From: Candidatus Omnitrophota bacterium | GTDB lineage: Bacteria; Omnitrophota; Gorgyraeia; Gygaellales; Profunditerraquicolaceae | DNA length: 64,000 nt | Direction: 5' to 3' | Assembly: GCA_026387265.1 (NCBI GenBank) | Contig: JAPLLZ010000020.1 | Span: 5,413 to 69,412, forward strand | Shown: piece by piece, positions 24,835-40,511 of the stretch | Layout: every line of letters begins with the position of its first letter | Position numbering within the stretch: the first letter of the stretch is position 1 | Program-made: the position numbers and the translations under genes | The notes under the pieces: generated by a model | Told to the model about the DNA's origin: nothing | Seen by the model: the letters and a program-made list of their open reading frames with translations, nothing else | Database searches by the model: none

Positions 24835-24937
24835 AGCTTAATGGAATATTAACATCCGTTATTTTTGTTTTTACTTTAAGCCTATAGAACAAAATCCCGC
24901 CTAATTTTAGGGATAGGTGCGGGATAAAAGGAGAAAA

Positions 24938-26539: not shown

Positions 26540-26540
26540 A

Positions 26541-28700
26541 ATGGCAAGAATAATCGTAATATTCAGCACTAAGGGCGGTGTAGGTAAGACGCTGATTGCT
26601 GCAAATTTAGCCGCCTCTTTAGCTAAAGAGGGCAAACGTGTTTGCGCGGTAGATTTAGATACTCAGGTCGTAGGCGATATGGCGCATGTGCTTGGTGTGA
26701 ATCCGCAAAATTGCATGGCCGACCTGATGAGTTTTCTTAAGAAACAACCGCAGACAACTAAGAAGCAGGATTTTGTAGTTAGGTCTAAATTTAATGACCT
26801 GGATTTTCTTGCCGGGGTCCTTAAACCGCAACAATCCGGATATTTATATCCGGAAAAGATACCCGATGTTTTTTCATTCCTGGATAAAGATTATGATTAT
26901 ATTGTTGTGGATGCCGGGAAAAGTTTTAGTGATGTATTCCTTTCGGCGTTAAACCAAGCAAACCTCATCCTTCTCATTGTCACTCCGGATGCCCTTTCTA
27001 TATACCAGACTAAATGGGCATTGGATACTCTGCAGTTTTTGCATTTTCCTCTAAGCATGGTTAAGCTTTTACTTAATAGGTCTGAATCCTTGTCTAGTAT
27101 AAGCTGGCAGGAGATTCGCGTGCATCTGCCCGTCGATATAATTGCAAGGATTCCGTCGGAAGGCAGATTGGTTAACCAGGCGGTTAATCAAGGAATGCCT
27201 GTAGTTATTGATTCGCCTCGTTCTAAAATTGCCTCAGCTTTTGCCGAGCTTACCAGCACCCTAATTTCTAACAAAGCAATATTTGTAGAGCGTAGGAATC
27301 TTGACCAGATTAAGATGAAAGAAGCAGTAATGGAAAAATCTGGACAATTCTGGGAAACTCAAGGGTTAAAGGAATCAGTTCTTGACCCGGATGCCAGTGA
27401 AGACAGAGATGAAATTTTAATCCTTAAACGCAGGATTCATAGCCGTCTCTTGGAAAGTATGAATATCAAGAAGCTGGATCTTAAGGTATTCAGCGACCAT
27501 AAAAAAGGCGAAGAATTAAAGGGTAAAGCCGAAGCAGTGGTAAGTAATCTTTTAGTGGAAGAGGCAGGTAGTTTTATTCCTTCTCAAGATGTAAGAAAAA
27601 AACTGATTAAGGAAATTTTGGATGAAGCTTTAGGGCTGGGCCCCTTAGAAGATCTTTTGGCTGATTCGGATATTACGGATATTATGGTGAATAATAAGGA
27701 TGAGGTCTATGTCGAGCGTTTTGGCAAAATTGAATTGACCAGCAAGAAATTTATCTCTAATGATCAGGTAAGAACAATTATCGAGCGTATTATTGCTCCG
27801 ATCGGCAGGCGTATTGATGAATCTGTGCCGATGGTTGATGCCCGCCTTACTGATGGGTCGCGAGTTAATGCGATTATTTCTCCGCTGTCTTTAACCGGCC
27901 CGACATTAACGATTAGAAAATTCCGCAAAGAAAGATTTAAGACTAGCGATCTGCTTAATTTTGGGGCGCTTACTCTGCCAATGGCAGACTTTATTAAAGC
28001 CTGTGTATTATGCCGGAAGAATTTAATTGTTTCCGGCGGTACGGGTTCAGGAAAGACGACAGTGTTAAATGCGCTTTCTGAATATATCCCAGAGGGAGAA
28101 CGGATTATAACCTTGGAAGATGCCGCAGAGTTAAAATTAAATCAGCGGCATTGGATAAGGTTGGAATCCCGACCGCCGAACATTGAGGGTAAAGGTGCTT
28201 TAACTATTAGGGATCTTTTCCGCAATACTCTGCGTATGCGCCCGGATAGAATTATTGTAGGTGAATGCCGGGGGACCGAATCTTTAGACATGCTTCAGGC
28301 GATGAATACCGGACATGATGGTTCAATGACTACGATTCATGCTAATTCTACTGCGGATGTCTTGAGCCGTTTGGATTCGATGATTCTTATGTCCGGGATT
28401 GAACTGCCTGCCCGGGCAATCCGCGAAATGGTTTCTTCGGCAGTAGATGTGATTGTGCATACTGCCAGGCTTTCGGATGGCTCAAGAAAAGTTTTGGGTA
28501 TTGCGGAAGTCGCAGGAATGAAAGATGAAATGCATATAAATTTAAATGACATATTTATTTTTAAGCAGGTTGGGGTAGATGCTCAAGGTAAAGTCCTGGG
28601 TTATTTTACCGCTACGGGTTATAAGCCTTCGTTTTTGGATGAGATTCGTGTACGGGGAGTGGCTATTTCGGATAAGATCTTTGAGCCTACCAAGCCGTAA
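26541..28700 (+). CDS. Fused CpaE/TadZ-like ParA/MinD ATPase (N-terminus) and CpaF/TadA secretion ATPase (C-terminus)
   Basis: The N-terminus [21 protein letters not shown] is a deviant Walker A of the ParA/MinD type. The C-terminal T2SSE domain has Walker [12 protein letters not shown], an Asp box and a His box (TIHANS). Both halves lie in a single ORF. Confidence 0.8.
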
Positions 28701-29195: not shown

Positions 29196-31466
29196 ATGGG
29201 AGTAACGCATAAGCTTAAACCTGAGGTTTTAAGCTTTATTATCGAAAATAAGCAGAATAATCCTACGTTAAGTTGCCGCCATTTAACTTCGTTGGTTCTT
29301 GAGCAGCTGCATATCAAAGTCTCCAAATCCAGCATAAATGCTGTTTTTAAAGAAAAGAACTTAAGCATGCCTATTGGCAGGAGGCCTAAGCCGAAGAAAA
29401 GAAAATTTAATATGCCTGTTTTGCCGGTTATAGAAGACGCTAAAATTTCCAGATTAGGCGATTTACCGCAAGAGATTCTTCAGGATCAAGAAAAAGAAAA
29501 ACTTGAAAAAGAAAAAGCCGCTCAAGAAGCTGCTAAGATTAAGGTTCTTGAAGAAGCTAAACTGCGAGAGTCAGAAAGAATTGCTAAGGAGGCTGAAGAA
29601 AAAAGAAAGCGCGATGAAGAAATACGCAGGCTTGCTGAAGAAAAAGTTGCTCAAGAAGCAGAAGAAAACAGAAAGCAGGAAGAAGCCCAAAAGCTTGCTG
29701 AGGAAAAAGCCGCCGAGGAATTGGCCCGGATCAAAGCCTTGGAAGAATCCAGGTTGCGCGAGATAGAAAAATTAGCTCAGCAAGCTGAAGAAAAAAGAAA
29801 GCGCGATGAAGAAATACGCAGGCTTGCTGAGGAAAAAGCCGCTCAAGAAGCAGTCAGGATCAAAGCTCTTGAAGAAGCTAAGTTGCGTGAGTTAGAAAGA
29901 ATCGCTCAAGAGGCAGAAGAAAAAGCTGCTCAAGAATTGTCTCGTCTCAAAGCCCTGGAAGAAGCCAGGTTGCGTGAGATAGAAAGATCGGCTAAAGATG
30001 CTGAGGAAAAGGCTGCTCAGGAAGCTGAAGAAAGAAAGAAACGTGATGAAGAAGTGCGCAGGCTTGCTGAAGAAAAAGTTGCTCAAGAATTGTCCCGTCT
30101 CAAAGCCTTGGAAGAAGCCAGGTTGCGCGAGATAGAAAAATTAGCTCAGGAAGCTGAAGAAAGAAGGAAACGCGATGAAGAAATACACAGGCTTGCTGAG
30201 GAAAAAGCCGCCGAAGAATTGGCCCGGATCAAAGCCCTGGAAGAATCCAGGTTGCGCGAGATAGAAAAATTAGCTCAGGAAGCTGAAGAAAATGAGCGTA
30301 AACAAGAAGGAGCGCGTAAGCTAGAAGCAGAAAAGGTAAAACAAGAATCAGGATTGCAGGCGGAGAGAGAAAGGTGGGCCAGGTTAGCAGAAGAAGAGAA
30401 AAAGTCTAAACAAGAAGCCAGCAAACCTAAAATAGTTAATGAAGAACCTGTTCCGGTAAAAGCTGAGTCTACAGTTGTGGAAGTTTTTCCTGAAGATAGG
30501 GTATGCTCAGGGGCCATAATACTTAAAGCCTTGGATGCTTTAATTGGCGGAAGTAAAGAGATTAATGCTGTTATTAGCACGGCAATCGGAGGCAAGCCAG
30601 AAGATTCAATAAATCTTACCGAAACATTATTGTTTAAGTCTTTATTCGTCAAAGATAAATTTTCTACGCTCGGGGATTTAGTTGGTGTGCGCTATCCCCA
30701 AGAGCAGCTAAATAATTATCATGTGCAAATCAAGCAGGTTACCGGAATAGGTTTAGATGTTACTAAAGCTATCTCGGATGTTTTTATCCAGTCCAAAGGA
30801 GTAAAAGTCAATTTTATCGATAAGAGCGTTATTCACTTGGATGGCCAGTTACATTCAAGTTGGCCGGCCACACGTTTCCCTTACGATTTTGCTAATACTA
30901 TTTCCGACCTGAAAACCAATTTAAATAAATGTTTCTTTCAGGGGCAGCCCTTAGTTTTATTTTCTCCTCCCGGTTACGATATTCTCCCCAAAGATTTTTT
31001 TAATCTTATCTTAAATTTTAGATCAAAAGATAACTATCCGGTTAGCTTAACTTTATTCGGAAATCAATTAGAAGATTTAGATAATATTCCCTTAGGTCCG
31101 GAAAATAAATGTAATTTAATCTTTGGACTTTGGCCTTGGCAATTTACTTCCAGCCGCAAGGTTAAAAAAATCGGCGAGTTTTCTTTAAAGTACATTAAAG
31201 AATTAGACCGTGATTTATATTTAGGGGATGTGGAAATTGATTTATTCCGGGCAGCCCTGAATCAGAGTGTATCTTTAAAAGGCTGCGCAGTAAAAACTGA
31301 CCTTAAGGGTAAAATCCGCCTGGTTATTCTCAATAGTAGTGAACAGGCGATGGATTTGGATGCGTTGGCAGGCACCTATTTAAGCCATTGGCGCTTTTTG
31401 GTTATGCCGGCGATGAGCAAAAGTTTTTTTCCAAGGATAGTTTTGGTATGGACACAGCAGGATTGA
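29196..31466 (+). CDS. HTH-like N-terminus, ~270-aa KE-rich tandem-repeat coiled coil, and a ~350-aa C-terminal domain of unknown function
   Basis: The N-terminus LSCRHLTSLVLEQLHIKVSKSSINAVF has a helix-turn-helix pattern, followed by a basic patch RRPKPKKRK. Residues ~100-390 are imperfect repeats of EEKAAQEA/RIKALEEARLREIEKLAQEAEEKRKRDEEIRRLA, with DNA repeats spanning ~29480-30300. Confidence 0.6.
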   Translation: MGVTHKLKPEVLSFIIENKQNNPTLSCRHLTSLVLEQLHIKVSKSSINAVFKEKNLSMPIGRRPKPKKRKFNMPVLPVIEDAKISRLGDLPQEILQDQEKEKLEKEKAAQEAAKIKVLEEAKLRESERIAKEAEEKRKRDEEIRRLAEEKVAQEAEENRKQEEAQKLAEEKAAEELARIKALEESRLREIEKLAQQAEEKRKRDEEIRRLAEEKAAQEAVRIKALEEAKLRELERIAQEAEEKAAQELSRLKALEEARLREIERSAKDAEEKAAQEAEERKKRDEEVRRLAEEKVAQELSRLKALEEARLREIEKLAQEAEERRKRDEEIHRLAEEKAAEELARIKALEESRLREIEKLAQEAEENERKQEGARKLEAEKVKQESGLQAERERWARLAEEEKKSKQEASKPKIVNEEPVPVKAESTVVEVFPEDRVCSGAIILKALDALIGGSKEINAVISTAIGGKPEDSINLTETLLFKSLFVKDKFSTLGDLVGVRYPQEQLNNYHVQIKQVTGIGLDVTKAISDVFIQSKGVKVNFIDKSVIHLDGQLHSSWPATRFPYDFANTISDLKTNLNKCFFQGQPLVLFSPPGYDILPKDFFNLILNFRSKDNYPVSLTLFGNQLEDLDNIPLGPENKCNLIFGLWPWQFTSSRKVKKIGEFSLKYIKELDRDLYLGDVEIDLFRAALNQSVSLKGCAVKTDLKGKIRLVILNSSEQAMDLDALAGTYLSHWRFLVMPAMSKSFFPRIVLVWTQQD

Positions 31467-31469
31467 CTA

Positions 31470-31759
31470 TGGAGTTAACGGAAATTTTTGCAAATTATGT
31501 TAAAATGCTGGATGCTTATTTGCGTTGGCATTTTTTGCCAGTAGAATACGCAGTAAAAGACCTTTCTTCTACCAGCGATTGTTTTTACAAGATTCCGGCT
31601 AAACTCACGGCCAGTCAGAACAGGATGAGGGTTAAAACATTGGTTAGCCAGGATTATCAATTCCTGAAAGACTTAGAATATCTTAACTGCCGGTTAAATG
31701 AGCGGCAGATTAAAACAGCCAATGGTAAGATATTTTGGTTCGAAAGCGCTTTCAAATAG
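31470..31759 (+). CDS. Hypothetical small protein. The upstream extension to 31388 is in the -1 frame relative to the preceding gene.
   Basis: The ORF 31388..31759 overlaps the end of 29196..31466 by 79 nt. The first ATG after that gene's stop is at 31470. No recognisable motif is present. Confidence 0.3.
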
Positions 31760-31876: not shown

Positions 31877-32017
31877 ATGGTTTTAAGAAAAAAGAATGGC
31901 CAGAGTACGCTTGAGTATGTAATTATTTTGGCGATTGTCGTCGGAGCGATCTTAGCTGGGGGGGTGATTTTGAAGCCATTCATAGCGAAGACTTATGATG
32001 CGGCATATTCTGAATAG
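31877..32017 (+). CDS. flp: Flp-family pilin (46 aa)
   Basis: MVLRKKNGQSTLEYVIILAIVVGAILAGG carries the G/QSTLEY Flp prepilin motif followed by a hydrophobic helix. Confidence 0.7.
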   Translation: MVLRKKNGQSTLEYVIILAIVVGAILAGGVILKPFIAKTYDAAYSE

Positions 32018-32065
32018 GGGTATAGCGGTAGAGGTTAGGCGAAAGACTAAAATAGGATTTTGCAG

Positions 32066-32191
32066 ATGGTTTTAGGAATCAGGCGAGGACAAAGTTTAAT
32101 AGAATACACGATGCTGATTATCATTATTGGTTCAGCATTGATTGCGATGACTACTTATATAGTGCGAGCACTGAATGCGCGGCTTGGGTAG
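32066..32191 (+). CDS. flp: Flp-family pilin (41 aa)
   Basis: MVLGIRRGQSLIEYTMLIIIIGSALIAMTTY is present. It is not in the ORF track because it is under 60 aa. Coordinates come from manual translation. Confidence 0.65.
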   Translation: MVLGIRRGQSLIEYTMLIIIIGSALIAMTTYIVRALNARLG

Positions 32192-32217
32192 TAAATGCTA
32201 TTTTAATATAAAAATAG

Positions 32218-32406
32218 ATGAATTTAACCAGGGCGAAACAGAAAATAAGGCTGGGGAGCAAAAACGGGCAGGGTTTCATAGAGTATGTGATGCTTATTAT
32301 CATTGTTAGCGCAGCGTTAATTGCGATGACTATATATTTAATGCGTTCCACAAATGCCCGCATTAAACAAGAGCAACAGGAATTAAATTATCATAGTGCA
32401 GAATAA
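32218..32406 (+). CDS. flp: Flp-family pilin (62 aa)
   Basis: KNGQGFIEYVMLIIIVSAALIAMTIYLM is present. Confidence 0.6.
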   Translation: MNLTRAKQKIRLGSKNGQGFIEYVMLIIIVSAALIAMTIYLMRSTNARIKQEQQELNYHSAE

Positions 32407-32425
32407 CATTATAAGGAGGGGGGAA

Positions 32426-32599
32426 ATGAATAAGCTAAGGAGTGGGCAAAGTACATTGGAGTACGTAATTATCTTGGCGGCGGTTGTGGGTGCGATTATT
32501 GCGGTAGGGATATTGATTAAGGGTAACTTAAATACTTCATATACTAAGTTAGGGGATAAGATGCAAAGTAAAGTAATAGAGTTAGGGGATAAGATATAA
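32426..32599 (+). CDS. flp: Flp-family pilin (57 aa)
   Basis: An AAGGAGGGGGG RBS precedes the start. MNKLRSGQSTLEYVIILAAVVGAIIAVGIL is present. Confidence 0.7.
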   Translation: MNKLRSGQSTLEYVIILAAVVGAIIAVGILIKGNLNTSYTKLGDKMQSKVIELGDKI

Positions 32600-32635
32600 G
32601 ATAGATAGGAGAAGTAAATTTTTAAGGAGGTGAAA

Positions 32636-32977
32636 ATGTTAAGGCAATTGAAGAAAGGGCAGAGTACGGCAGAATATGCAATTGTGATTGGGTTAGTTAT
32701 TGCTGCAGCGGTAGCCATGCAGGTTTATGTTAAACGCGGTATTCAAGGTAAAATGAAGAATGCAGTAGACTACAATGATCCAGAGGCTGCTAAAATTGGA
32801 ATTGGGGCAGATACGCAGTATGAACCAAATTATCAAACTACAACCAATATGAAAGCTACCCGTGAGTCAAAAGAAGATACAGAGGCTAAACTAGGTGGGG
32901 GTGTAGTTAGAACAATTACAGGTGAAGATGTGAGCACTAGGACAGGTAAGAGTACAATTTTAGGGGTCAACGAATAA
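32636..32977 (+). CDS. flp: Flp-family pilin, long form (113 aa)
   Basis: An AAGGAGG RBS precedes the start. MLRQLKKGQSTAEYAIVIGLVIAAAVAMQVYVKRGIQGK is followed by a polar C-terminal extension. Confidence 0.7.
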   Translation: MLRQLKKGQSTAEYAIVIGLVIAAAVAMQVYVKRGIQGKMKNAVDYNDPEAAKIGIGADTQYEPNYQTTTNMKATRESKEDTEAKLGGGVVRTITGEDVSTRTGKSTILGVNE

Positions 32978-33018
32978 TTATTACCATAATTAAAGTTGTT
33001 TTTAAAGCAGGAGGAAAT

Positions 33019-33327
33019 ATGTTTGGAGTAAAGACCAAAGGGCAAACTACCCTGGAAGTAGTTATTTTGATTGGTTTTGTGGTTGCTGCGTTAATTGCTA
33101 TGGGTGTATATATTAAAAGAGGTATGCAAGGCCGGCTTAGAGATTCAGCGGATCAGATTGGTGAACAATATTCAGCCGGGAATACTACCGGAAAATACAC
33201 AACTACAATTAGTATGGAGCAGAATGAAAGTATGCAGAAAGGTGGTCATGTTGACACGACCATTGTAAAAAATGAGCAGAGAAAGTCGGGATCCGAGACG
33301 GTGAGTGATTTTTCGCTGGGATATTAA
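33019..33327 (+). CDS. flp: Flp-family pilin, long form (102 aa)
   Basis: A GCAGGAGG RBS precedes the start. GQTTLEVVILIGFVVAALIAMGVYIKRGMQGR is present. Confidence 0.65.
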   Translation: MFGVKTKGQTTLEVVILIGFVVAALIAMGVYIKRGMQGRLRDSADQIGEQYSAGNTTGKYTTTISMEQNESMQKGGHVDTTIVKNEQRKSGSETVSDFSLGY

Positions 33328-33941
33328 TGAGAAGAGGGCAATCGACCCTAGAGTATGTTTTTTTAGTTGGTGTCGGAGCAGTTGCGCTTATTGCTATGCT
33401 TGTTTACATCGGCCGCAGCCTGCAGGGGAATATACGTAATCAGGCTGAACAATTAGGCGCTTGGCAGTATGCCCCGGGAAATACGATGATAAATAATAGC
33501 GAAACTAAAACAACCAAAGCTACCAAGAGATCGACGAGTACTACTACGGTTACATATGGTAATTTAAATGCACCGCATCCGGAGTTAGATAAGGCTATTG
33601 CTGATTTTCAAGCTAGTTTAGCTTTAATAGAACAATATAAGAAAGAATGGGATGTAGCGGTAGATGATGAAGCTAAAGCGCAGGCCGCGAAAGAATTAAA
33701 TGCCCCAGGAAGAGATCTTCTTTCCTGGATACCTCCTCCTACTGGGGTTGCAGCCATTGATCAAAAGATTGCCGCTGAAATAGCGAATGGTAAAAAACTT
33801 TATGAAACCTTCCTTGCCCTTAAAAAGGCCTGGGATGAACGTAAGATAACGGGAGATACTACTTCTTCCACCAGCTCTGGTAGTGCAGAAAGTAGCATAG
33901 ATGATGTTAAGCGTACAGAGGAAACTTTGGGTAATTTGTGA
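33327..33941 (+). CDS. flp: Flp-family pilin with a ~150-aa C-terminal extension (204 aa)
   Basis: MRRGQSTLEYVFLVGVGAVALIAMLVYIGRSLQGN is followed by a Thr-rich linker and a helical C-terminal domain. Its ATGA start overlaps the previous stop. Confidence 0.65.
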   Translation: MRRGQSTLEYVFLVGVGAVALIAMLVYIGRSLQGNIRNQAEQLGAWQYAPGNTMINNSETKTTKATKRSTSTTTVTYGNLNAPHPELDKAIADFQASLALIEQYKKEWDVAVDDEAKAQAAKELNAPGRDLLSWIPPPTGVAAIDQKIAAEIANGKKLYETFLALKKAWDERKITGDTTSSTSSGSAESSIDDVKRTEETLGNL

Positions 33942-34228
33942 AAACAAAGACTTTTTATAGAGGACAAAATTTAGTTGAGCTTGCTTTACTTATTGGCATA
34001 GTAGGGCTTGTGTTTATTGGAATGGGGGCATATATTAGGAGAGGAGTGCAGGGTAAGGTAAAAGACTGGACAAATTATGTTGTGTCTGATCAACAGGCGC
34101 CGGATGCAGACGCGGAAGACACCCAGAGTTCAACATCTTTTGGTTCAACGATGACTTCTGAAGAACTTAAGGATGGAGGGATGAAGTTGACGGGCCAGGA
34201 GAAAACTCATGTAGATTCCAGTCAGTAG
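33938..34228 (+). CDS. flp: Flp-family pilin, long form (96 aa)
   Basis: A GTG start overlaps the previous stop. YRGQNLVELALLIGIVGLVFIGMGAYIRRGVQGK is present. Confidence 0.6.
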   Translation: MKTKTFYRGQNLVELALLIGIVGLVFIGMGAYIRRGVQGKVKDWTNYVVSDQQAPDADAEDTQSSTSFGSTMTSEELKDGGMKLTGQEKTHVDSSQ

Positions 34229-34292
34229 ATTATCATGCGATTCTTGTGGTGAGAATTTTTGGAGATGGAGTAGATTTTGAAGGAGTTAGAAA

Positions 34293-34898
34293 ATGTTAAG
34301 ATGCCAGAAAGCCCAAGCTATTCTGGAATTAGCTATTTTAGGTTCAATAATTATCCTGGCTTTTTCTTTTGCTATTAAGTATAGCGAACGAGGAAACCGC
34401 GAACAGTCTTATATGCAGCAGACATTCCGCGCACTTTTAAAAAAAGCAAAATTAAATAATAGCACTGCTTCTTGGCAAACAATGGATTTTCGCAGAATGC
34501 CTAATGTTGTCAATCCTATGGAGTTAGGGGAATTGGAACAATTTTCCAGTTCCAATAGTATTATTTGGTCGGACGATTTAGAGGAGATAGAGACTAAATC
34601 TAAATCATATTTTCAGCTTAACCGGGGTCCGGAACAGGAAATTGCTAGCGGTAGTGCTGGCCTGCCGGGTACAGGTGAAAGTATGACCACTAGTTTTACA
34701 AGTAATGCCGCTGGCACTACTACCTCTCAAAAGAATGAGCAGGGTGGCCGGATTGTTACAAATAAGTCTCTTAATGCTACGGACAGCATATCGGGAAGCG
34801 CTGATTTAGGAGGGACAACAGTTAGCCTTGGAGGAAGCCTGGGTGAGGGTGGTAAATATACAGGCGGAGGTATAAATCGCTCCAGGAGTATGCAATGA
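34293..34898 (+). CDS. TadE-like pseudopilin / minor pilin
   Basis: N-terminal CQKAQAILELAILGSIIILAFSFAI is a TadE-like N-terminal helix. The C-terminus is Ser/Thr/Gly-rich. Confidence 0.5.
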   Translation: MLRCQKAQAILELAILGSIIILAFSFAIKYSERGNREQSYMQQTFRALLKKAKLNNSTASWQTMDFRRMPNVVNPMELGELEQFSSSNSIIWSDDLEEIETKSKSYFQLNRGPEQEIASGSAGLPGTGESMTTSFTSNAAGTTTSQKNEQGGRIVTNKSLNATDSISGSADLGGTTVSLGGSLGEGGKYTGGGINRSRSMQ

Positions 34899-35131
34899 TA
34901 AGAAAAGGCCAGGCAACCTTGGAATTTACGCTGGCTTTTATTATAATGGTTGCTTTGATCGCAGGTCTTTTAAATTTATGGTCATGGTCAAATAGCCAGA
35001 TTGGTGGCCGCCAAGGCAGTTTTGAAGGCAGCCGGGTTGCGGCAGGGTCGAAAGATTCTCCGGGAGAGCCCGCTGTGCCTTATGGCGCCGGACAGATTAC
35101 CGATAGCCAGACGTACATGTTTAAGAAATAA
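34895..35131 (+). CDS. TadE/Flp-like small pilin (78 aa)
   Basis: MIRKGQATLEFTLAFIIMVALIAGLLNLW is present. It overlaps the upstream gene by 4 nt. Confidence 0.55.
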   Translation: MIRKGQATLEFTLAFIIMVALIAGLLNLWSWSNSQIGGRQGSFEGSRVAAGSKDSPGEPAVPYGAGQITDSQTYMFKK

Positions 35132-35146
35132 ATAGAGGGAGGTAAT

Positions 35147-36763
35147 TTGTTCTTTTTTGGATTTACCAAAAATAAGTATTTTAAAAAAAAGGAAGGCTTG
35201 GCAGGGCAAGTTTTTCCTTTTTTGCTTATTTGTATAGTAGCATTAGCTGTTGCCGTCGGTATGTCTAGATCAGCTCGTAATAGTGCAATATCTAAAACCA
35301 ATGTTTCTAATGCCGCGGATGCCTGTTCAATAACCGCTGGATCTTACTGGGCCGGAGGTTTCAATGATTTGGTAGAAAAAAATCTGGAGATGAATGCTTA
35401 TTATGATCAATACGCCGGTTATTATAAAGCCTTGCACACATTAGCGTATGGCGTTGATGGAAATGGAGGTTACCTGGATAAAGCGTATTTAAATACTTTG
35501 GATGCGCATCTCAGTACGCAATGGGCCAGTAATGCACTTACTGATGGAGGTAGCGATTGCGCAAATTTGGTATCAGATAAGTCCAATGCTGAATCGCACT
35601 ATTATTGGGCCAAGTATTATGCTCTTGAGTCAGCTAGATACTTCGGGGCTATCTGGGTCCTTGCTCGATATATGCAGAATCTTACTGATAATTTTAAATA
35701 TAATCAAGCACAAGCTTATTGTAACGCCAGGTCTTCTATGGAAGATTCCATAGAAAATGCTAAATTAAAAGGGACACACTATGCCTTTGTTAATAGCGGG
35801 ACAGCGTCGCGATCTCCTAGCGGGGATGCTTTTAATTTGTTTTTAGGCACTAATAAATATAATGAAAGTCCATCTTTCGGAAATACAACTAGTGAGCTAA
35901 CCTATGATTGGCAATGGCCGTCTAAATGCGGAACAAGTAAAGGGGGTACCACGGTTACCTTTACCCAGCCAAAAATAAAAGCTCAGAAGGTTCAGCATAC
36001 TATAAGCCCGTATCCGGTTCTAACAGATTTTGACGTTGACGAAAATGTGCAAAATTTCGCGGGTGTAGGAGAAAACGGAGAAGGCCGACTTTTGGTAGTT
36101 AATGATGATATCTTTAATCTTTATTCATCTCGGGCATTAGCAACTGCTATGGTAAATATCTATTTTAATTTGGGCGACTTTGATAATCGACTTTCAGGGA
36201 ATGATTCAATAGAGTTTTGTATTAATAATGGTTGTTGTCCGGATGCCACGGTTACTGATTGTGTTACAGCATTTGCAACGTGTCTTTCGAATACTAGAAG
36301 AGCTCCACCAAGTGGAGTTAATTTGTTTACTTTAATTAAAGCGTTAAATGCCATACACAATAGCAGCAGTAAAAATTCATTATCCGTATATGGACTAAGA
36401 ATGGCCGCCAAAGATATTTTAGATAATGTTTGGACGATCGATACAGGGAATTTTTCTCTAAGCGATAGTTGTAATGATGTTCAGGGTTTGGCCGATAACG
36501 CTCCTGCAGATAGCCAAGTGGATATCACGAAATCCTTGATTATCGTTGGTTTGGGTGATGAGCCTGAGTTAGATCCAAGCCTTTGGCAGACGGAGTGTAC
36601 GGTAACAGCATTTTATACTAATATATATAATAAACGCAAAGATACCTGTGGTAGTTCTTCTGCCACAAGCAGCAGTACATCAGAGTTTCATGGTGACGGG
36701 GATATTGGTTACGGGACGAATAACAAGGCTGAGTATGAAACAACTATGATTAAGGCCAGTTAA
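35147..36763 (+). CDS. Putative TadG-like pilus-associated protein (538 aa) with an N-terminal TM anchor
   Basis: GQVFPFLLICIVALAVAVGMS is an N-terminal helix resembling the TadE/G N-terminal domain. It has a large Cys-containing extracellular domain. The call rests mainly on position within the locus. Confidence 0.35.
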   Translation: MFFFGFTKNKYFKKKEGLAGQVFPFLLICIVALAVAVGMSRSARNSAISKTNVSNAADACSITAGSYWAGGFNDLVEKNLEMNAYYDQYAGYYKALHTLAYGVDGNGGYLDKAYLNTLDAHLSTQWASNALTDGGSDCANLVSDKSNAESHYYWAKYYALESARYFGAIWVLARYMQNLTDNFKYNQAQAYCNARSSMEDSIENAKLKGTHYAFVNSGTASRSPSGDAFNLFLGTNKYNESPSFGNTTSELTYDWQWPSKCGTSKGGTTVTFTQPKIKAQKVQHTISPYPVLTDFDVDENVQNFAGVGENGEGRLLVVNDDIFNLYSSRALATAMVNIYFNLGDFDNRLSGNDSIEFCINNGCCPDATVTDCVTAFATCLSNTRRAPPSGVNLFTLIKALNAIHNSSSKNSLSVYGLRMAAKDILDNVWTIDTGNFSLSDSCNDVQGLADNAPADSQVDITKSLIIVGLGDEPELDPSLWQTECTVTAFYTNIYNKRKDTCGSSSATSSSTSEFHGDGDIGYGTNNKAEYETTMIKAS

Positions 36764-36857
36764 GCTATATAATTTAAGTGTATGTTTAGATAATAACCAG
36801 GTCTTTGATTTATGCAATCGTAAAAATTTATTTTAGCTTTTAGCCATTAACAGAATA

Positions 36858-37619
36858 ATGATAAATTTTAAACCTAAGAAAATTCTCGTTGTGTTTTTTT
36901 TAGCCATGTTTTCTATTTCTGTGTTATGGGCTGCAGAGTTAAACTTTCCTTTGCCGGCCACAACTGTAAAAATCCGGGAGGAAAAAGCCAGGTTTGGGCC
37001 AATAAAAACTATTACTAAAACTTATAAATCTGCTTTGAACCGGGACCAGATAAATTCATTTTACGAGAAAGAGATGGTTCTGGCCGGTTGGAGCCAACAA
37101 GAAAAAAGGGTTTTTACAAAAAACAAGTATTTAGTGATAATTTCATCTTATTCCTCAGGAAGTAAGAGTAATGAAAATAGATTTACAATGACTATTTGCA
37201 ATATTCCTACAAAAGAGGAAGTCCTGGCCTCGTATAATACTAAACCGGAAAAATTAAACTATATGCCGATTTACCCCGGAAGCACACAGTCTATATTCTT
37301 AAAGCTTTCCGGTAGCACCACAAGTTCTTATGAAACAGATGATAGCATAAAAGAAGTGGTTTTTTTCTACGAATCTGGTATGGTAAAATATGGTTGGGGT
37401 TTGGTTAATCGGATTCCAGCCACAGGTATTGCAGATAAGGTAGTTTTATTATTCGGCAGGCAAAATGGGGAAACTTGTCAGATCCAGGTATCAAGTGTTT
37501 CCAGCAGCTTAAATGATTTGTTTAATAAAGATAAACCGATTAATAAGATAAATGTAAGGCGAGCGGAAAAAACCGGCATTTTAGTTAACTATAATACTTA
37601 TGGGAAAAATAAGCCGTAA
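36858..37619 (+). CDS. Secreted hypothetical protein with a signal peptide
   Basis: The N-terminus KKILVVFFLAMFSISVLWAAE is a signal peptide. No motif is recognised. Confidence 0.4.
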   Translation: MINFKPKKILVVFFLAMFSISVLWAAELNFPLPATTVKIREEKARFGPIKTITKTYKSALNRDQINSFYEKEMVLAGWSQQEKRVFTKNKYLVIISSYSSGSKSNENRFTMTICNIPTKEEVLASYNTKPEKLNYMPIYPGSTQSIFLKLSGSTTSSYETDDSIKEVVFFYESGMVKYGWGLVNRIPATGIADKVVLLFGRQNGETCQIQVSSVSSSLNDLFNKDKPINKINVRRAEKTGILVNYNTYGKNKP

Positions 37620-37767
37620 GGCCCAATCAACTGTGGAATACTTGGGGATGATTATTGTGATTATCGCCATATTTATCATTGCGGGGGTGTATTATCAGCG
37701 TAGCCTGCAGGGTAAATACCGGCAGGCAGGGGATTCTTTGGGTGGTGGTGAACAATACGCTCCTTAA
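37600..37767 (+). CDS. flp: Flp-family pilin (55 aa)
   Basis: MGKISRKAQSTVEYLGMIIVIIAIFIIAGVYYQRSLQGK is present. It is not in the ORF track and its coordinates come from manual translation. Its first 20 nt overlap the upstream gene. Confidence 0.6.
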   Translation: MGKISRKAQSTVEYLGMIIVIIAIFIIAGVYYQRSLQGKYRQAGDSLGGGEQYAP

Positions 37768-37791: not shown

Positions 37792-38637
37792 ATGATCGTA
37801 TTACTTCTTATCTTAATTTTGTGTTCCGTTGTTTTAATTTCTTTTAGCCTTTTGCCTGCTGTTGTGCAAAAAATACAAACTTGGCAGCAACAGAAGGAGG
37901 TGGTGTTAGCTAAAGAGATGGATAAGATGTTCTATGACAAAAGCCCCAAGAACATCGTTATGCTTTATTATATCCTTCCGCTGATTTTTGGAGTAGGAGG
38001 ATATGTCCTTCTGCGGTCACAGATTTTTATGATTTTTGGCGTACTTATCGGCGTAGCTATTCCTAATTTCATTTTGAAAGCGCGCTATAAGATGAGAATC
38101 CGGAAATTTAATGATCAGCTTCTTGATGCGATTAATATGCTTTCAAGCTGCATAAAGGGCGGCTTAAGCCTTTTACAGGGGCTGGAGGTATTGGTTGAAG
38201 AGATGCCTGCTCCAATCAGCCAGGAGTTAGGTTTGGTAGTGAGAGAAAATAAAATGGGCATTCCTCTAGAGGAGTGCCTTAGCCGCCTGAATAAAAGGAT
38301 GAATATTGATGAACTCGGGTTAGTAGTTAATGCGCTTTTAGTTGCGCGTGAAACAGGCGGTGAATTACCCAAGGTTTTTAGCCGCTTAACGGTAACCATC
38401 CGTGATAATCGTAAATTAAGGGAGAGTATTAAAACACTTACCATGCAAGGAAGAATGCAGGGGGCAATCATGTCTTTTTTGCCTTTCGTGTTTGTGGTTT
38501 GGGTGCTTTCGGTGAATAACCACCATTTTGATATTATGCTAAATAGTGATATAGGCAGAATGCTGATTATTGTGGCAGCAATATTGCAAGTAGTCGGTAT
38601 GTTTTTAATTAAGATGTTTAGCACAATCAATATTTAA
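37792..38637 (+). CDS. tadB: TadB (T2SSF/GspF-domain inner-membrane platform protein)
   Basis: It has an N-terminal TM helix, a cytoplasmic GspF-like helical domain (LSSCIKGGLSLLQGLEVL) and C-terminal TM helices. It is paired with a paralog immediately downstream. Confidence 0.7.
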   Translation: MIVLLLILILCSVVLISFSLLPAVVQKIQTWQQQKEVVLAKEMDKMFYDKSPKNIVMLYYILPLIFGVGGYVLLRSQIFMIFGVLIGVAIPNFILKARYKMRIRKFNDQLLDAINMLSSCIKGGLSLLQGLEVLVEEMPAPISQELGLVVRENKMGIPLEECLSRLNKRMNIDELGLVVNALLVARETGGELPKVFSRLTVTIRDNRKLRESIKTLTMQGRMQGAIMSFLPFVFVVWVLSVNNHHFDIMLNSDIGRMLIIVAAILQVVGMFLIKMFSTINI

Positions 38638-38638
38638 T

Positions 38639-39496
38639 ATGGAAATAGCCATATTTCTTCTTATTTTAGGTTCAATAGGCCTGGTAGTTTGGAGCTTGAT
38701 TTCTTCCTCCCAATCCAGCTCGCTTTTGCGTATGCCTCAGGATGGATCAATCGTTAATGTGCCAAAGCCCAAGTTCGATTTTGCGGGTATTTTACCTACC
38801 GGATCATTTTTGCAGAACACTGGAATGGCGGTGAGCATAAAAAAGTCTCTGGATACCGCGCATATCAGCATTTCTCCGGGTGCATTCTTTAATTTAAAGA
38901 TACTTTTGTGTATTCTTTTAGCGGCATTAACGGTAGCGTTTACCGAAAAGGTTGATCCGCTTCTACTAGTAATCTTTATTGCTATTGGTTATGTTATTCC
39001 CGATTTTTATTTAAAACGCAAAATCGCTCAGCGTAAAAATCTGATTGCCCGTAGGCTTCCGGAAACAGTGGATCTTCTGGGTCTGTGTATTGAAGCAGGA
39101 TTGGATTTTGTGAATGCGGTAAAATGGGTTATCGAAAGGACTCCGCATACCCCAATGACTGAAGAGTTAGCTTTTGTGGTTGATGAAATAAAGTGGGGTA
39201 AACCGCGTATCCAGGCTTTAAAAGATATGGCGCGCAGGCTGGAAATATCTGAAATGAGCTCCTTTGTACAGACAATTATCCAGGCTGAGCGTATGGGTAC
39301 GCCGGTGGCTGAAGCATTTGCCATACTTTCGGAAGATGCCCGCGCGCAAAGATTCCACCGCGGGGAAAGAATTGCCCTGCAAGCCCCGATTAAGATACTT
39401 CTGCCGCTTATCTTTTTCATTATGCCGGTAATTGGTATTGTCGTTGGAGGCCCAATCTTGCTTACATTTATGCAAGGTGGCCTTACTGGGTTTTAA
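38639..39496 (+). CDS. tadC: TadC (T2SSF-domain platform protein)
   Basis: It has the same architecture, with LGLCIEAGLDFVNAVKWV. Confidence 0.7.
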   Translation: MEIAIFLLILGSIGLVVWSLISSSQSSSLLRMPQDGSIVNVPKPKFDFAGILPTGSFLQNTGMAVSIKKSLDTAHISISPGAFFNLKILLCILLAALTVAFTEKVDPLLLVIFIAIGYVIPDFYLKRKIAQRKNLIARRLPETVDLLGLCIEAGLDFVNAVKWVIERTPHTPMTEELAFVVDEIKWGKPRIQALKDMARRLEISEMSSFVQTIIQAERMGTPVAEAFAILSEDARAQRFHRGERIALQAPIKILLPLIFFIMPVIGIVVGGPILLTFMQGGLTGF

Positions 39497-40106: not shown

Positions 40107-40511
40107 TTGATAAACCCTAAACTCGAAACTCTAAATCCTAAACAAACCAAAATTAACCAAACTCAAAACTCAAAGCCGTATGATTTAGGGGATAGAACCC
40201 TGGTTTTTAGTAAAAAGGTATTTAACTATGTAAAACAACTAGTAAAGGTAATAACTAATCTGGAAGTCGCCAAGCAGTTAGTTAGATCAGCTGGTTCTGT
40301 AGGAGCTAATTATCTTGAAGCTGAAGAATCTCTAAGTAGAAAAGATTTCTTAATGAGGATAAAGATAGCCAGAAAAGAAGCCAAGGAGAGTAGATATTGG
40401 CTGGTTCTAAGTGAGCCCCTAAAGGAACAGGAAAAAGTAAGGGAAGAATTAATAGATGAGTCTACTCAGTTGATGAAGATATTCGGTTCTATTGTAAGTA
40501 ATTCTGGGTAA
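40107..40511 (+). CDS. Four-helix-bundle protein (23S rRNA intervening-sequence protein family)
   Basis: LVRSAGSVGANYLEAEE and KESRYWL are characteristic of the TIGR02436/PF05635 family. It uses a TTG start 7 nt after AGGAGGG. Confidence 0.65.
   Translation: MINPKLETLNPKQTKINQTQNSKPYDLGDRTLVFSKKVFNYVKQLVKVITNLEVAKQLVRSAGSVGANYLEAEESLSRKDFLMRIKIARKEAKESRYWLVLSEPLKEQEKVREELIDESTQLMKIFGSIVSNSG

What the first reader, a model, noticed from the sequence alone, without database searches (positions are those of the whole stretch)
31877..37767. Nine or more Flp-type pilin paralogs in one array, split into short (41-62 aa) and long (96-204 aa) classes
Tad loci usually carry one to three flp genes. 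Here eight consecutive genes, 31877-34228, carry the G/QSTLEY-type prepilin motif followed by a hydrophobic helix. A ninth sits just before tadB, at 37600-37767. Several of these are under 60 aa and are therefore absent from the ORF track.

The long forms and the ninth gene share a conserved post-helix motif Y-[IV]-x-R-[GS]-x-Q-G-[KRN] (YVKRGIQGK, YIKRGMQGR, YIGRSLQGN, YIRRGVQGK, YYQRSLQGK). The short forms lack it.

This multiplicity suggests antigenic or functional diversification of the fibre, or a heteropolymeric fibre.
Basis: partly seen in the sequence, partly recalled or inferred. Interest (0 to 1): 0.6.

Follow-up and report, generated by a model that had tools for sequence, protein, structure and literature searches.

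The report
Expanded pilin gene set, Omnitrophota Tad locus
A candidate-phylum (Omnitrophota) bacterium carries eleven or twelve pilin-like genes in a row inside its Tad pilus operon; the set is old, ordered and conserved across the phylum, so it most likely encodes specialised parts of one filament rather than interchangeable surface variants.

Summary
The window (Candidatus Omnitrophota) has 11 genes with a class III (prepilin) signal, K/R-K/R-G/A|Q-S-T-L-E-Y plus a hydrophobic helix. All lie on the + strand between 31877 and 37767. A TadG-like 538-aa protein with the same G|Q site but no Glu5 makes twelve.

The genes sit inside a Tad (type IVc) operon: RcpC, secretin, TadZ-TadA fusion, TadB, TadC. 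Very large ORFs follow it.

In 42 of 44 related Omnitrophota loci the same array holds 7-14 such genes (median 10) in a conserved order of at least six old families.

- Only p1 and p4 are demonstrably Flp-like; their profile hits the solved Caulobacter Tad pilins at E = 0.002.
- p2, p3, p5-p8 and p11 share M20/Y23/R26, extended in p5-p8 and p11 to Q29-G30, always in the same register.
- p9, p10 and the 538-aa protein resemble a TadF/TadE/TadG tip set.

No window protein reaches a Pfam or NCBIfam cut-off, and no prepilin peptidase is linked.

Paralogs are 5-44% identical, while orthologs are 45-86% identical in the nearest relative. The array has no long DNA repeats. This favours a heteropolymeric filament with minor pilins over antigenic variation.

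West-Roberts et al. (2023) mentioned these small class III genes in passing.

The parts
31877..32017 (+). p1, 46-aa prepilin (KNG|QSTLEY), family D, Flp-type, no Y23/R26
   Evidence: ORF. SD AGGTG upstream. Weak PF04021 hit, E = 0.0051. Family D profile hits solved Tad pilins 8u2b and 8u1k. Ortholog in L001 is 67% identical, dN/dS 0.19.
32066..32191 (+). p2, 41-aa prepilin (RRG|QSLIEY), family C, with Y23-x-x-R26-x-x-N-A-R
   Evidence: Ortholog in L001 is 86% identical, dN/dS 0.07. Not called by an independent gene caller. Shares a 95-nt stretch at 73% DNA identity with p3.
32218..32406 (+). p3, 62-aa prepilin (KNG|QGFIEY), family C
   Evidence: Ortholog is 80% identical, dN/dS 0.08. Not called by an independent gene caller.
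32426..32599 (+). p4, 57-aa prepilin (RSG|QSTLEY), family D, Flp-type; best candidate for the major fibre subunit
   Evidence: Strongest SD, AAGGAGGGGGG. Only window protein with a PF04964 hit, E = 0.011. Its only PDB hit is Caulobacter PilA 8u1k. Family profile hits 8u2b/8u1k at E = 0.002/0.004 over the full length. Database orthologs are named 'Flp pilus assembly pilin Flp' or 'class III signal peptide-containing protein'.
32636..32977 (+). p5, 113-aa prepilin, family B, Y23VKRGIQG30
   Evidence: AF2 model: helix 11-44 plus four strands 67-108, pLDDT 70, pTM 0.29. The profile of this family finds 4210 cluster representatives at E <= 1e-3.
33019..33327 (+). p6, 102-aa prepilin (G|QTTLEV), family A, YIKRGMQG
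   Evidence: SD AGGAGG. Ortholog is 79% identical.
33327..33941 (+). p7, 204-aa prepilin, family B, YIGRSLQG; fast-evolving C-terminal part
   Evidence: Its start overlaps the p6 stop. dN to L001 is 0.51, against 0.03 for TadZ-TadA.
33938..34228 (+). p8, 96-aa prepilin (G|QNLVEL), family B, YIRRGVQG
   Evidence: GTG start overlaps the p7 stop. The L001 ortholog has Asp5 instead of Glu5. dN 0.42.
34293..34898 (+). p9, 201-aa prepilin-like protein (KA|QAILEL), family E; candidate TadF-like minor pilin
   Evidence: AF2 model pLDDT 82, pTM 0.69: helix 3-55 followed by a beta sheet. No fold match in PDB.
34895..35131 (+). p10, 78-aa prepilin-like protein (KG|QATLEF), family F; TadE-like
   Evidence: PF07811 TadE, E = 0.0015, 19.1 bits against a 22.9-bit cut-off. 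Eight of 73 sampled array proteins hit TadE weakly. Ortholog is 83% identical.
35147..36763 (+). 538-aa TadG-like protein with a G|Q(V/I)xP(F/L) site, no Glu5; candidate cap of the tip complex
   Evidence: PF13400 is the only Pfam hit, E = 0.17, at residues 25-64. The N-terminus and the NAADAGSLAAAS signature are conserved after the family F gene in 28 of 29 loci. dN 0.56.
36858..37619 (+). 253-aa protein with an N-terminal signal-like hydrophobic segment; role unknown
   Evidence: Evolves fast: 44% identity to L001.
37600..37767 (+). p11, 55-aa prepilin (KA|QSTVEY), short but with the full YYQRSLQG motif; always directly upstream of tadB
   Evidence: A 46-62-residue pilin-like ORF lies just upstream of the tadB position in about 30 loci. 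Ortholog is 77% identical, dN/dS 0.12.
37792..39496 (+). tadB (37792-38637) and tadC (38639-39496), two half-size platform proteins
   Evidence: PF00482 T2SSF, E = 6e-19 and 2e-16.
23012..28700 (+). Upstream machinery: PPIase (23012-23929), RcpC/CpaB (23929-24834), secretin with TonB_C tail (24917-26539), TadZ-TadA fusion (26541-28700)
   Evidence: Pfam hits well above cut-off.
29196..31759 (+). Conserved gene between tadZA and the pilin array, split here by a frameshift (756-aa and 123-aa ORFs)
   Evidence: Single 854-aa ORF in L001; both window pieces align to it. No Pfam hit.

Best explanation
The array is the full pilin complement of one Omnitrophota Tad-type (type IVc) filament machine.

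Shown:
- Eleven proteins, plus a TadG-like twelfth, carry a class III signal: a short basic leader, cleavage expected after G/A, Gln+1, Glu+5 and a hydrophobic helix of about 22 residues.
- They lie between the tadZ-tadA and tadB-tadC genes of a locus that also encodes RcpC and a secretin.
- They fall into at least six old families kept in a fixed order across the phylum.

Inferred:
- A prepilin peptidase encoded elsewhere removes the leaders.
- TadA with TadB/TadC then extracts the mature subunits from the inner membrane and stacks them through their N-terminal helices into one filament that leaves through the secretin.
- The Flp-type subunits (p4, perhaps p1) would build the shaft.
- The short helical p2, p3 and p11 would act as low-abundance adapter pilins.
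- p9, p10 and the Glu5-less 538-aa protein would form the priming tip complex, as TadF/TadE/TadG and KilL/M/N do.
- The helix-plus-beta pilins p5-p8 would be additional minor pilins. Their variable C-terminal parts would be exposed and would mediate contact with prey or host cells, or with the very large proteins encoded downstream.
- The shared M20/Y23/R26(/Q29-G30) collar sits where the helix leaves the membrane. It probably serves assembly or subunit packing.
For: Class III signal:
- It occurs in 11 window ORFs, on the + strand only, all inside the locus.
- Consensus over 489 proteins: position -1 is G (60%) or A (36%), positions -2/-3 are K/R, Q1 97%, E5 96%, Y6 76%.

Tad machinery flanks the array.

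The organism and 80 related loci are Omnitrophota. The array is present in 42 of 44 loci with at least 9 kb downstream of tadZA, with 7-14 genes and a median of 10.

Conserved family order, DCCD-BABB-EF-...-A in the window, with positional orthologs.

Orthologs in the nearest relative are 45-86% identical with saturated synonymous sites and dN/dS of 0.06-0.26. Paralogs within the window are only 5-44% identical.

Family assignments:
- The family D profile hits solved Tad pilins 8u2b/8u1k over their whole length, E = 0.002/0.004, as the top two of 177,635 PDB sequences.
- p10 and its relatives hit TadE weakly.
- The 538-aa protein hits only PF13400, and its G|Q site without Glu5 is conserved.
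- The p9 model is a 55-residue helix plus a beta sheet, pLDDT 82. The p5 model is similar but weaker.

Y23 and R26 are 83-100% conserved in families A, B and C. The extended motif starts at residue 23 in 189 of 189 cases.

Precedents:
- The Kil Tad pilus has a major pilin, Flp-type adapter pilins and TadE/F/G-like tips (PMC12075869).
- Tip complexes of type IV filaments are capped by a subunit lacking Glu5 (PMC10191384).
- Methanococcus Epd pili use about ten pilins with Gln+1 and Glu+5 (PMC3875500).
Against: - No window protein reaches the curated cut-off of PF04964, PF04021, PF07811, PF13400 or any NCBIfam model.
- No A24 prepilin peptidase motif occurs in the window, in 10 kb upstream of it, or in any of the 80 loci, so processing is assumed.
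- The role given to each family (shaft, adapter, tip) rests on analogy, gene order and Shine-Dalgarno strength only. No expression, abundance or complex prediction was available.
- The p5 model is of low confidence in its beta part (pLDDT 60-70, pTM 0.29). Neither model matches a solved pilin by Foldseek.
- Four relatives of the tadZA gene (L019, L028, L067, L080) have no array downstream.
Confidence: 0.6

Rival explanations
1. The same genes build a short periplasmic pseudopilus that works as a piston, as in type II secretion. It would push the very large downstream proteins or other cargo through the secretin, rather than forming a long adhesive fibre. The many minor pilins would form the cargo-contacting tip.
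For: - The locus sits directly upstream of three consecutive very large ORFs of 3935, 1830 and at least 1859 aa.
- One shaft subunit plus many minor subunits is also the type II secretion layout (PMC10191384).
Against: - Every identifiable component is of the Tad type: TadZ, a split TadB/TadC platform, RcpC and an RcpA-like secretin.
- Family D is homologous to fibre-forming Flp pilins.
- The downstream proteins are reported to have many transmembrane segments, which fits poorly with periplasmic type II cargo.
- The two readings are not mutually exclusive.
Confidence: 0.2
2. The paralogs are alternative major subunits used for antigenic or phase variation, or for phage evasion. One would be expressed at a time, or they would be reshuffled by recombination.
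For: - Several members evolve fast: dN of p7 and p8 is 0.42-0.51, against 0.03 for TadZ-TadA.
- The copy number of the long forms varies between relatives, from 3 to 7.
Against: - There are no long identical DNA tracts and no inverted repeats. The only sizeable repeat is 95 nt at 73% identity, between p2 and p3.
- Paralogs are 5-44% identical and belong to different length and fold classes.
- Each has a positional ortholog in relatives, and the family order is fixed.
- The genes are tightly packed or overlapping on one strand, which points to co-transcription.
Confidence: 0.07
3. One machine assembles two or more different filaments. For example, a p1-based and a p4-based fibre could each have their own set of accessory pilins, for different targets or conditions.
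For: - There are two Flp-type genes, p1 and p4, 44% identical and separated by p2 and p3.
- The family string contains repeated B-A units.
- Myxococcus uses interchangeable tips on one pilus.
Against: - Only one E-F-TadG-like tip set is present per locus.
- There is no internal promoter or terminator signal above background.
- Some relatives have a single family D gene (for example L022, L029 and L076).
Confidence: 0.1
4. The small ORFs are not pilins. They would be unrelated small membrane peptides, or bacteriocin-like precursors processed by the C39 peptidase-like region of the large downstream protein.
For: - A weak Peptidase_C39 hit lies in the 3935-aa protein (E = 6e-5).
- None of the small proteins passes a curated pilin model.
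Against: - The leaders are short and basic and end in a single G/A before Gln. They are not double-glycine leaders.
- Glu5 is 96% conserved.
- All sub-threshold Pfam hits point to pilin families: Class_IIIsignal 22, Flp_Fap 10 and TadE 8 of 73 proteins.
- Family D is homologous to solved Tad pilins.
- The genes lie inside a Tad operon.
Confidence: 0.03

Closest known systems
Tad / Flp (type IVc) pilus of Aggregatibacter, Caulobacter and Pseudomonas: Flp major pilin, TadE/TadF minor pilins, TadG
   Same: - The machinery set is the same: TadA, TadZ, TadB plus TadC, RcpC/CpaB and an RcpA/CpaC-type secretin.
- The pilins have the G|xxxxEY signature.
- p1 and p4 are homologous to Caulobacter PilA.
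- A TadE-like, a TadF-sized and a TadG-like gene follow the pilins.
   Different: - There are 11-12 pilin-like genes instead of about 3-5.
- Three extra families (A, B, C) carry an M20/Y23/R26 collar that the Flp-type family D of these loci lacks. Classical Flp, TadE and TadF sequences were not compared here.
- Gln+1 is nearly invariant.
- TadZ is fused to TadA, and the secretin carries a TonB_C tail.
- No tadV is linked.
- The curated Flp_Fap, TadE and Tad HMM cut-offs are not reached.
Myxococcus xanthus Kil system (Tad-like predation pilus; PMC12075869)
   Same: - A predation-associated Tad machine with a major Flp pilin.
- Short all-helical Flp-type adapter minor pilins (KilK, KilO).
- TadE/F/G-like tip trimers whose largest member carries a variable distal domain.
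- Omnitrophota are inferred predators or parasites (PMC10066038).
   Different: - Kil pilin genes are scattered over several clusters, with four alternative tips. Here all genes sit in one operon with a single tip-like set.
- Families A, B and C have no described Kil counterpart.
- No sequence homology to Kil proteins was tested here.
Archaeal Epd pili of Methanococcus maripaludis (EppA-processed DUF361 / PF04021 pilins; PMC3875500)
   Same: - A short leader ending in Gly, with conserved Gln+1 and Glu+5.
- About ten small and larger pilin-like proteins, several of them essential minor pilins.
- PF04021 is the Pfam model hit most often by the Omnitrophota proteins. Some p4 orthologs carry it above threshold.
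- Tad pili are thought to derive from Epd pili (PMC10191384).
   Different: - The Epd pilins lack Tyr+6. The Omnitrophota proteins mostly have it (76%).
- The host is a diderm bacterium with a secretin, RcpC and TadZ.
- The window proteins score below the PF04021 cut-off.
[quoted passage not shown] 2023, bioRxiv 10.1101/2023.11.21.568195)
   Same: This is the same locus type: gspD/E/F-like genes, rcpC and a Rotamase PPIase, followed by giant genes. [quoted passage not shown]
   Different: That paper gives one sentence. It does not report the number of genes, their families, their order or the Y23/R26 motif. It also does not separate Flp-type from helix-plus-beta forms or identify a TadE/F/G-like set.

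Membership tests
Type IV pilin superfamily (class III signal peptide proteins) | Short, positively charged leader ending in Gly/Ala, followed by a hydrophobic helix of about 20 residues | tested here: met
   All 11 window proteins. Over 489 proteins, position -1 is G (60%) or A (36%) and positions -2/-3 are K/R. AF2 helices at residues 11-44 (p5) and 3-55 (p9).
Type IV pilin superfamily (class III signal peptide proteins) | Conserved Glu at mature position 5, absent only from the tip-capping subunit | tested here: met
   Glu5 is present in p1-p11 and in 96% of 489 relatives. The TadG-like protein consistently lacks it.
Type IV pilin superfamily (class III signal peptide proteins) | Cleavage by a dedicated A24 aspartic prepilin peptidase | not testable with these tools
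   No G-x-G/A-D-x-K motif in a hydrophobic context in the window, the 80 loci or the 10 kb upstream. The rest of the genome was not available.
Type IV pilin superfamily (class III signal peptide proteins) | Genetic linkage to an assembly ATPase, a platform protein and (in diderms) a secretin | tested here: met
   T2SSE E = 2e-62, T2SSF twice, Secretin E = 2e-40.
Flp/Fap pilin (Pfam PF04964) | Score above the gathering cut-off of the Flp_Fap HMM (32.2 bits) | tested here: not met
   Only p4 hits, at 16 bits and E = 0.011. Ten of 73 relatives hit, best E = 1e-3.
Flp/Fap pilin (Pfam PF04964) | Mature subunit of about 40-60 residues, all helical, with no globular domain | tested here: inconclusive
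   The size criterion is met by p1-p4 and p11 (33-50 mature residues). It is not met by p5-p9 (87-200 residues, with predicted beta domains). No short form was modelled.
Flp/Fap pilin (Pfam PF04964) | Detectable homology to experimentally established Flp pilins | tested here: met
   Met for family D only (p1, p4). The profile hits 8u2b 'Flp family type IVb pilin' and 8u1k PilA at E = 0.002 and 0.004 over the full length. The profile of the p5 family finds nothing in PDB.
Class_IIIsignal (Pfam PF04021, archaeal DUF361 / Epd-type pilins) | Score above the gathering cut-off (23.7 bits) | tested here: not met
   The window proteins score 13.5-18.8 bits. Twenty-two of 73 relatives hit weakly. Some database orthologs of p4 carry PF04021 and are named 'class III signal peptide-containing protein'.
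Class_IIIsignal (Pfam PF04021, archaeal DUF361 / Epd-type pilins) | Gln at +1 and Glu at +5 | tested here: met
   Q1 97%, E5 96%. The feature is described for Epd pilins in PMC3875500.
TadE/TadF pseudopilins (Pfam PF07811) | Score above the gathering cut-off (22.9 bits) | tested here: not met
   p10 scores 19.1 bits, E = 0.0015. p9 has no hit. Eight of 73 relatives hit weakly, best E = 1e-4.
TadG (Pfam PF13400 'Tad') | N-terminal TadE/G-like segment scoring above the cut-off (22.3 bits) | tested here: not met
   12.7 bits, E = 0.17; it is the only Pfam hit and lies at the expected N-terminal position. The N-A-A-D-A-G-S-L-A-A signature is conserved in 28 of 29 loci.
Tad (type IVc) pilus system | TadA-type ATPase with a TadZ (ParA/MinD-like) partner | tested here: met
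   One 719-aa protein with AAA_31/CbiA/ParA at the N-terminus and T2SSE at residues 364-644.
Tad (type IVc) pilus system | Two separate half-size platform proteins (TadB and TadC) | tested here: met
   281-aa and 285-aa proteins, each with one T2SSF domain.
Tad (type IVc) pilus system | RcpC/CpaB and an RcpA/CpaC secretin | tested here: met
   PF16976 E = 1e-21; Secretin plus T2SS-T3SS_pil_N.
Tad (type IVc) pilus system | TadV/CpaA prepilin peptidase in the locus | tested here: not met
   Absent from the window and from all 80 related loci by motif scan.

The most novel reading that the evidence does not exclude
Families A, B and C (M20/Y23/R26, extended to Q29-G30) are a large, undescribed class of pilins. 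The profile of the p5 family alone finds at least 1,162 clusters (50% identity) at E <= 1e-10, and none of the window proteins has a curated family. In this reading the Omnitrophota filament is a multi-tiered heteropolymer. Its variable helix-plus-beta subunits would dock, display or export the giant proteins encoded downstream, and so couple a Tad pilus to giant-protein-based predation.
Probability: 0.2. Interest if true: 0.7.

Novelty: new variant of a known kind. Interest (0 to 1): 0.4.

Why it matters
Omnitrophota are uncultured ultra-small bacteria inferred to be predators or parasites. Their Tad-like locus and the giant genes behind it are the main genomic clues to how they attack other cells.

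Knowing that the locus encodes 7-14 pilins in at least six old, ordered families tells experimenters which proteins to look for at the contact site. Only one of these families is a classical Flp. The locus also holds a recognisable tip-like set and several fast-evolving exposed members.

The result also exposes an annotation gap. Two of the genes are missed by gene callers, and none of the window proteins is named by Pfam or NCBIfam. Surveys based on Flp (K02651 or PF04964) will therefore under-report pilins in this phylum.

For the type IV filament field, this is a bacterial Tad system whose pilins keep the archaeal Epd-like Gln+1 and a large minor-pilin complement. That fits the proposed archaeal origin of Tad pili.

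Tried and rejected
- **Curated models.** Pfam and NCBIfam scans of the nine pilins, p9 and p10 gave only sub-threshold hits. Raising the E-value limit to 10 for the neighbours added only PF13400 at E = 0.17.
- **Prepilin peptidase.** A motif scan of the window, 83 loci and the upstream 10 kb found nothing. A look-up of the 1830-aa protein, meant to extend the contig downstream, found no record.
- **Promoters and terminators.** The scan gave counts no higher than shuffled sequence, so it does not show which gene is the major pilin.
- **Repeats.** The search for cassette-type variation found nothing relevant.
- **Taxonomy of distant relatives.** Cluster look-up for distant members of the p5 family returned no organism names. 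Whether families A and B occur outside Omnitrophota stays open.
- **Expression data.** The Velamenicoccus archaeovorus papers held in the library do not report pilin-level data.
- **Bacteriocin idea.** Double-glycine leader peptides processed by the C39-like region were considered and rejected because the leader sequence does not fit.
- **First regex.** It required Glu5 and therefore missed the L001 ortholog of p8, which has Asp5. A later N-terminal HMM scan recovered the corresponding p8 ortholog in L004, but it still returned only 10 hits for L001 and did not recover the Asp5 ortholog there.

Full report
**What is there**

Between 31877 and 37767 the + strand carries a tight run of genes. 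Eleven of them start with the same kind of N-terminus: a short basic leader ending in Gly or Ala, then Q-S/A-T-L-E-Y/L/F and about 20 hydrophobic residues.

Using the Shine-Dalgarno sites seen in the sequence, the genes are:
- p1, 31877-32017, 46 aa
- p2, 32066-32191, 41 aa
- p3, 32218-32406, 62 aa
- p4, 32426-32599, 57 aa
- p5, 32636-32977, 113 aa
- p6, 33019-33327, 102 aa
- p7, 33327-33941, 204 aa
- p8, 33938-34228, 96 aa
- p9, 34293-34898, 201 aa
- p10, 34895-35131, 78 aa
- p11, 37600-37767, 55 aa

A 538-aa protein at 35147-36763 has a related N-terminus, K-K-K-E-G-L-A-G|Q-V-F-P-F, without Glu5.

A regex for the motif finds nothing else in the six-frame translation of the 64-kb window. An HMM of the N-terminus finds 489 hits on the + strand and none on the - strand of 80 related loci plus the window.

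**Context**

The array lies inside a Tad-type operon. The genes are a PPIase (23012), RcpC/CpaB (23929), a secretin with a TonB_C tail (24917), a TadZ-TadA fusion (26541), a conserved unknown gene (29196), the pilin array, tadB (37792) and tadC (38639).

Three very large ORFs follow, of 3935, 1830 and at least 1859 aa. GC content is about 39%.

The TadZ-TadA protein has relatives of 59-94% identity in 80 genome contigs. Most are labelled Candidatus Omnitrophota and some are mislabelled 'uncultured Planctomycetales'. p5, p4 and p9 match NCBI entries NT014_01300, NT014_01295 and NT014_01320 of an Omnitrophica MAG, all annotated 'hypothetical protein'.

**Are the small ORFs genes?**

Yes. Against the nearest relative (L001, TadZ-TadA 94% identical) each has an ortholog in the same position, 45-86% identical at the protein level. 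Synonymous sites are saturated (dS of about 1 or more) and dN/dS is 0.06-0.26 (p4 is taken, where it is 87% identical). Because dS is saturated the ratios are rough. The contrast between conserved protein sequence and randomised synonymous sites is clear all the same.

An independent gene caller called p1 and p4-p11. It missed p2 and p3 and called a 44-aa ORF in another frame instead.

**Conservation of the array**

Of 44 related loci with at least 9 kb downstream of tadZA, 42 have the array, with 7-14 pilin-like genes and a median of 10. The window's 11 is ordinary for the clade. Four tadZA relatives (L019, L028, L067, L080) are followed by other genes.

Clustering gives at least six families:
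- D: p1, p4
- C: p2, p3
- B: p5, p7, p8
- A: p6, p11
- E: p9
- F: p10

The order D-C-(C)-D, then alternating B and A, then E-F, then the TadG-like gene, and a final short family A-type gene before tadB recurs across the loci. The clustering of such short sequences is noisy, but the positional best-hit table agrees with it.

Paralogs within the window are 5-44% identical, far less than orthologs. The duplications therefore predate the divergence of these genomes.

**Sequence features**

Over 489 proteins:
- position -1 is G (60%) or A (36%)
- positions -2 and -3 are K or R
- Q1 97%, E5 96%, Y6 76%

By family:
- Y23 and R26 are 95-100% and 83-100% conserved in A, B and C.
- Q29 and G30 are added in A and B.
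- Family C has N-A-R instead of Q-G.
- Family D lacks all of these.
- Family E keeps Y23 only.

**Which known families?**

No window protein reaches the cut-off of Flp_Fap, Class_IIIsignal, TadE or any NCBIfam model. The weak hits all point to pilin families. Among 73 sampled array proteins from related loci, 22 hit Class_IIIsignal, 10 Flp_Fap and 8 TadE.

- **Family D.** Its profile hits the two solved Caulobacter-type Tad pilins (8u2b, 8u1k) over their whole length at E = 0.002 and 0.004, as the top two of 177,635 PDB sequences. For p4 alone, PilA is the only PDB hit. Database orthologs of p4 are named 'Flp pilus assembly pilin Flp' by IMG, and some are named 'class III signal peptide-containing protein' with PF04021 by NCBI. 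p1 and p4 are therefore Flp homologs.
- **p5 family.** It has no PDB relative. Its profile finds 4210 cluster representatives at E <= 1e-3 and 1162 at E <= 1e-10. Of the top 148 retrieved, 140 have the class III N-terminus and 119 of those keep the motif.
- **Structure models.** p5 gives helix 11-44 plus four strands at modest confidence (pLDDT 70, pTM 0.29). p9 gives helix 3-55 plus a beta sheet at good confidence (pLDDT 82, pTM 0.69). Both have the 'lollipop' layout of pilins with a globular domain, unlike Flp. Neither matches a solved structure by Foldseek.
- **p10.** It hits TadE just below the cut-off.
- **The 538-aa protein.** Its only Pfam hit is PF13400 (TadE/G-like), at E = 0.17. In 28 of 29 loci its ortholog follows the family F gene and keeps G|Q-(I/V)-x-P-(F/L), with no Glu5, and an N-A-A-D-A-G-S-L-A-A signature.

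**How it most likely works**

By established knowledge of type IV filaments (review PMC10191384), prepilins are cleaved by an A24 peptidase. They are then extracted from the membrane by the ATPase and platform and polymerised through their N-terminal helices. Assembly starts from a tip complex of minor pilins capped by a subunit without Glu5.

In the Myxococcus Kil Tad pilus there is a major Flp pilin. Short helical Flp-type adapter pilins and TadE/F/G-like tip trimers with a variable distal domain complete it (PMC12075869).

By analogy I assign these roles:
- p4, which has the strongest Shine-Dalgarno site and is Flp-like, and perhaps p1, form the shaft.
- p2, p3 and p11 are adapters.
- p9, p10 and the 538-aa protein form the tip.
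- p5-p8 are extra minor pilins with exposed variable parts.

The fastest-evolving members are p7, p8, the 538-aa protein and the following 253-aa protein. Their dN is 0.41-0.56, against 0.03 for TadZ-TadA. This fits surface exposure.

These role assignments are inferences. No expression data or complex modelling could be obtained.

**Rivals**

- **Cassette-type antigenic variation** is unlikely. There are no long repeats or inverted repeats. The paralogs are old and dissimilar, and the family order is fixed.
- **A type II secretion-like piston** for the giant downstream proteins cannot be excluded and may coexist with the main model. West-Roberts et al. call the locus 'type II secretion system-like'.
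- **Bacteriocin-like precursors** do not fit the leader sequence.

**The main gap**

No prepilin peptidase is linked. None was found in the window, in 10 kb upstream of it, or in the 80 loci.

**Comparison with the literature**

- The Tad complex of Omnitrophota is described (PMC10066038).
- A 2026 preprint again notes pilus or secretion genes next to giant genes.

None of these reports the number of genes, the families, the order, the Y23/R26 collar, the Flp-versus-beta-domain split or the TadE/F/G-like set.

The Gln+1/Glu+5 signature matches archaeal Epd pilins, which also come in sets of about ten (PMC3875500). This is consistent with the proposed archaeal origin of Tad pili.

**Verdict**

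This is a real, conserved and under-annotated feature. It is best read as an expanded minor-pilin complement of a known kind of machine. It is a new variant of a known kind, of moderate interest (0.4). The mere existence of the small class III genes was already noted in print.

Noticed in passing
window 29196-31759: The conserved gene between tadZA and the pilin array is split here into a 756-aa and a 123-aa ORF that overlap by 79 nt, near a run of seven T at about 31425. In L001 it is a single 854-aa ORF, and both pieces align to it. The protein has an HTH-like N-terminus and long Glu/Lys/Ala-rich repeats, and it has no Pfam family. The split could be an assembly error or a true frameshift.
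   Followed up: partly
window 32066-32406: p2 and p3 are not called by the gene caller used for the Logan assemblies. It calls a 44-aa ORF in another frame instead (window 32175-32309). Conservation and dN/dS show that p2 and p3 are the real genes.
   Followed up: yes
window 24917-26539: The Tad secretin carries a C-terminal TonB_C domain (E = 2e-17) after the Secretin domain. This is an unusual fusion for RcpA/CpaC-type secretins.
   Followed up: no
window 26541-28700: TadZ (ParA/MinD-like) and TadA (T2SSE ATPase) are fused into one 719-aa protein. The fusion is kept at 59-94% identity in the 80 Omnitrophota loci retained of 213 tblastn-confirmed relatives.
   Followed up: partly
window 41176-64000: Three consecutive very large ORFs overlap or abut: 41176-52983 (3935 aa, weak Peptidase_C39 and ResIII hits), 52967-58459 (1830 aa) and 58423 to the window end (at least 1859 aa). 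They may be one giant gene broken by frameshifts, as reported for Omnitrophota giant genes downstream of this locus type.
   Followed up: no
window 35147-36763 and 28 related loci: The TadG-like protein has a conserved G|Q-(I/V)-x-P-(F/L) N-terminus that lacks Glu5, followed by an N-A-A-D-A-G-S-L-A-A signature. This fits a Glu5-less capping pilin.
   Followed up: partly
L001 about 9841-10130: The ortholog of p8 in the closest relative has Asp instead of Glu at mature position 5 (GQNLVDLAL). This is a rare substitution at the most conserved pilin residue.
   Followed up: no
window 32547-32595: A perfect 16-nt direct repeat lies 33 nt apart inside the 3' end of p4 (AGTTAGGGGATAAGAT). It encodes a duplicated L-G-D-K in the C-terminal tail.
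   Followed up: no
L019, L028, L067, L080: Four tadZA relatives are not followed by a pilin array. Instead they are followed by a small DUF192-like ORF, large secreted proteins and a gene on the opposite strand. Some Omnitrophota may therefore keep the pilins elsewhere, or have a second, pilin-less copy of the ATPase.
   Followed up: partly
window 40107-40511: A 23S rRNA intervening-sequence protein homolog (PF05635, E = 6e-14) sits between tadC and the large ORFs.
   Followed up: no
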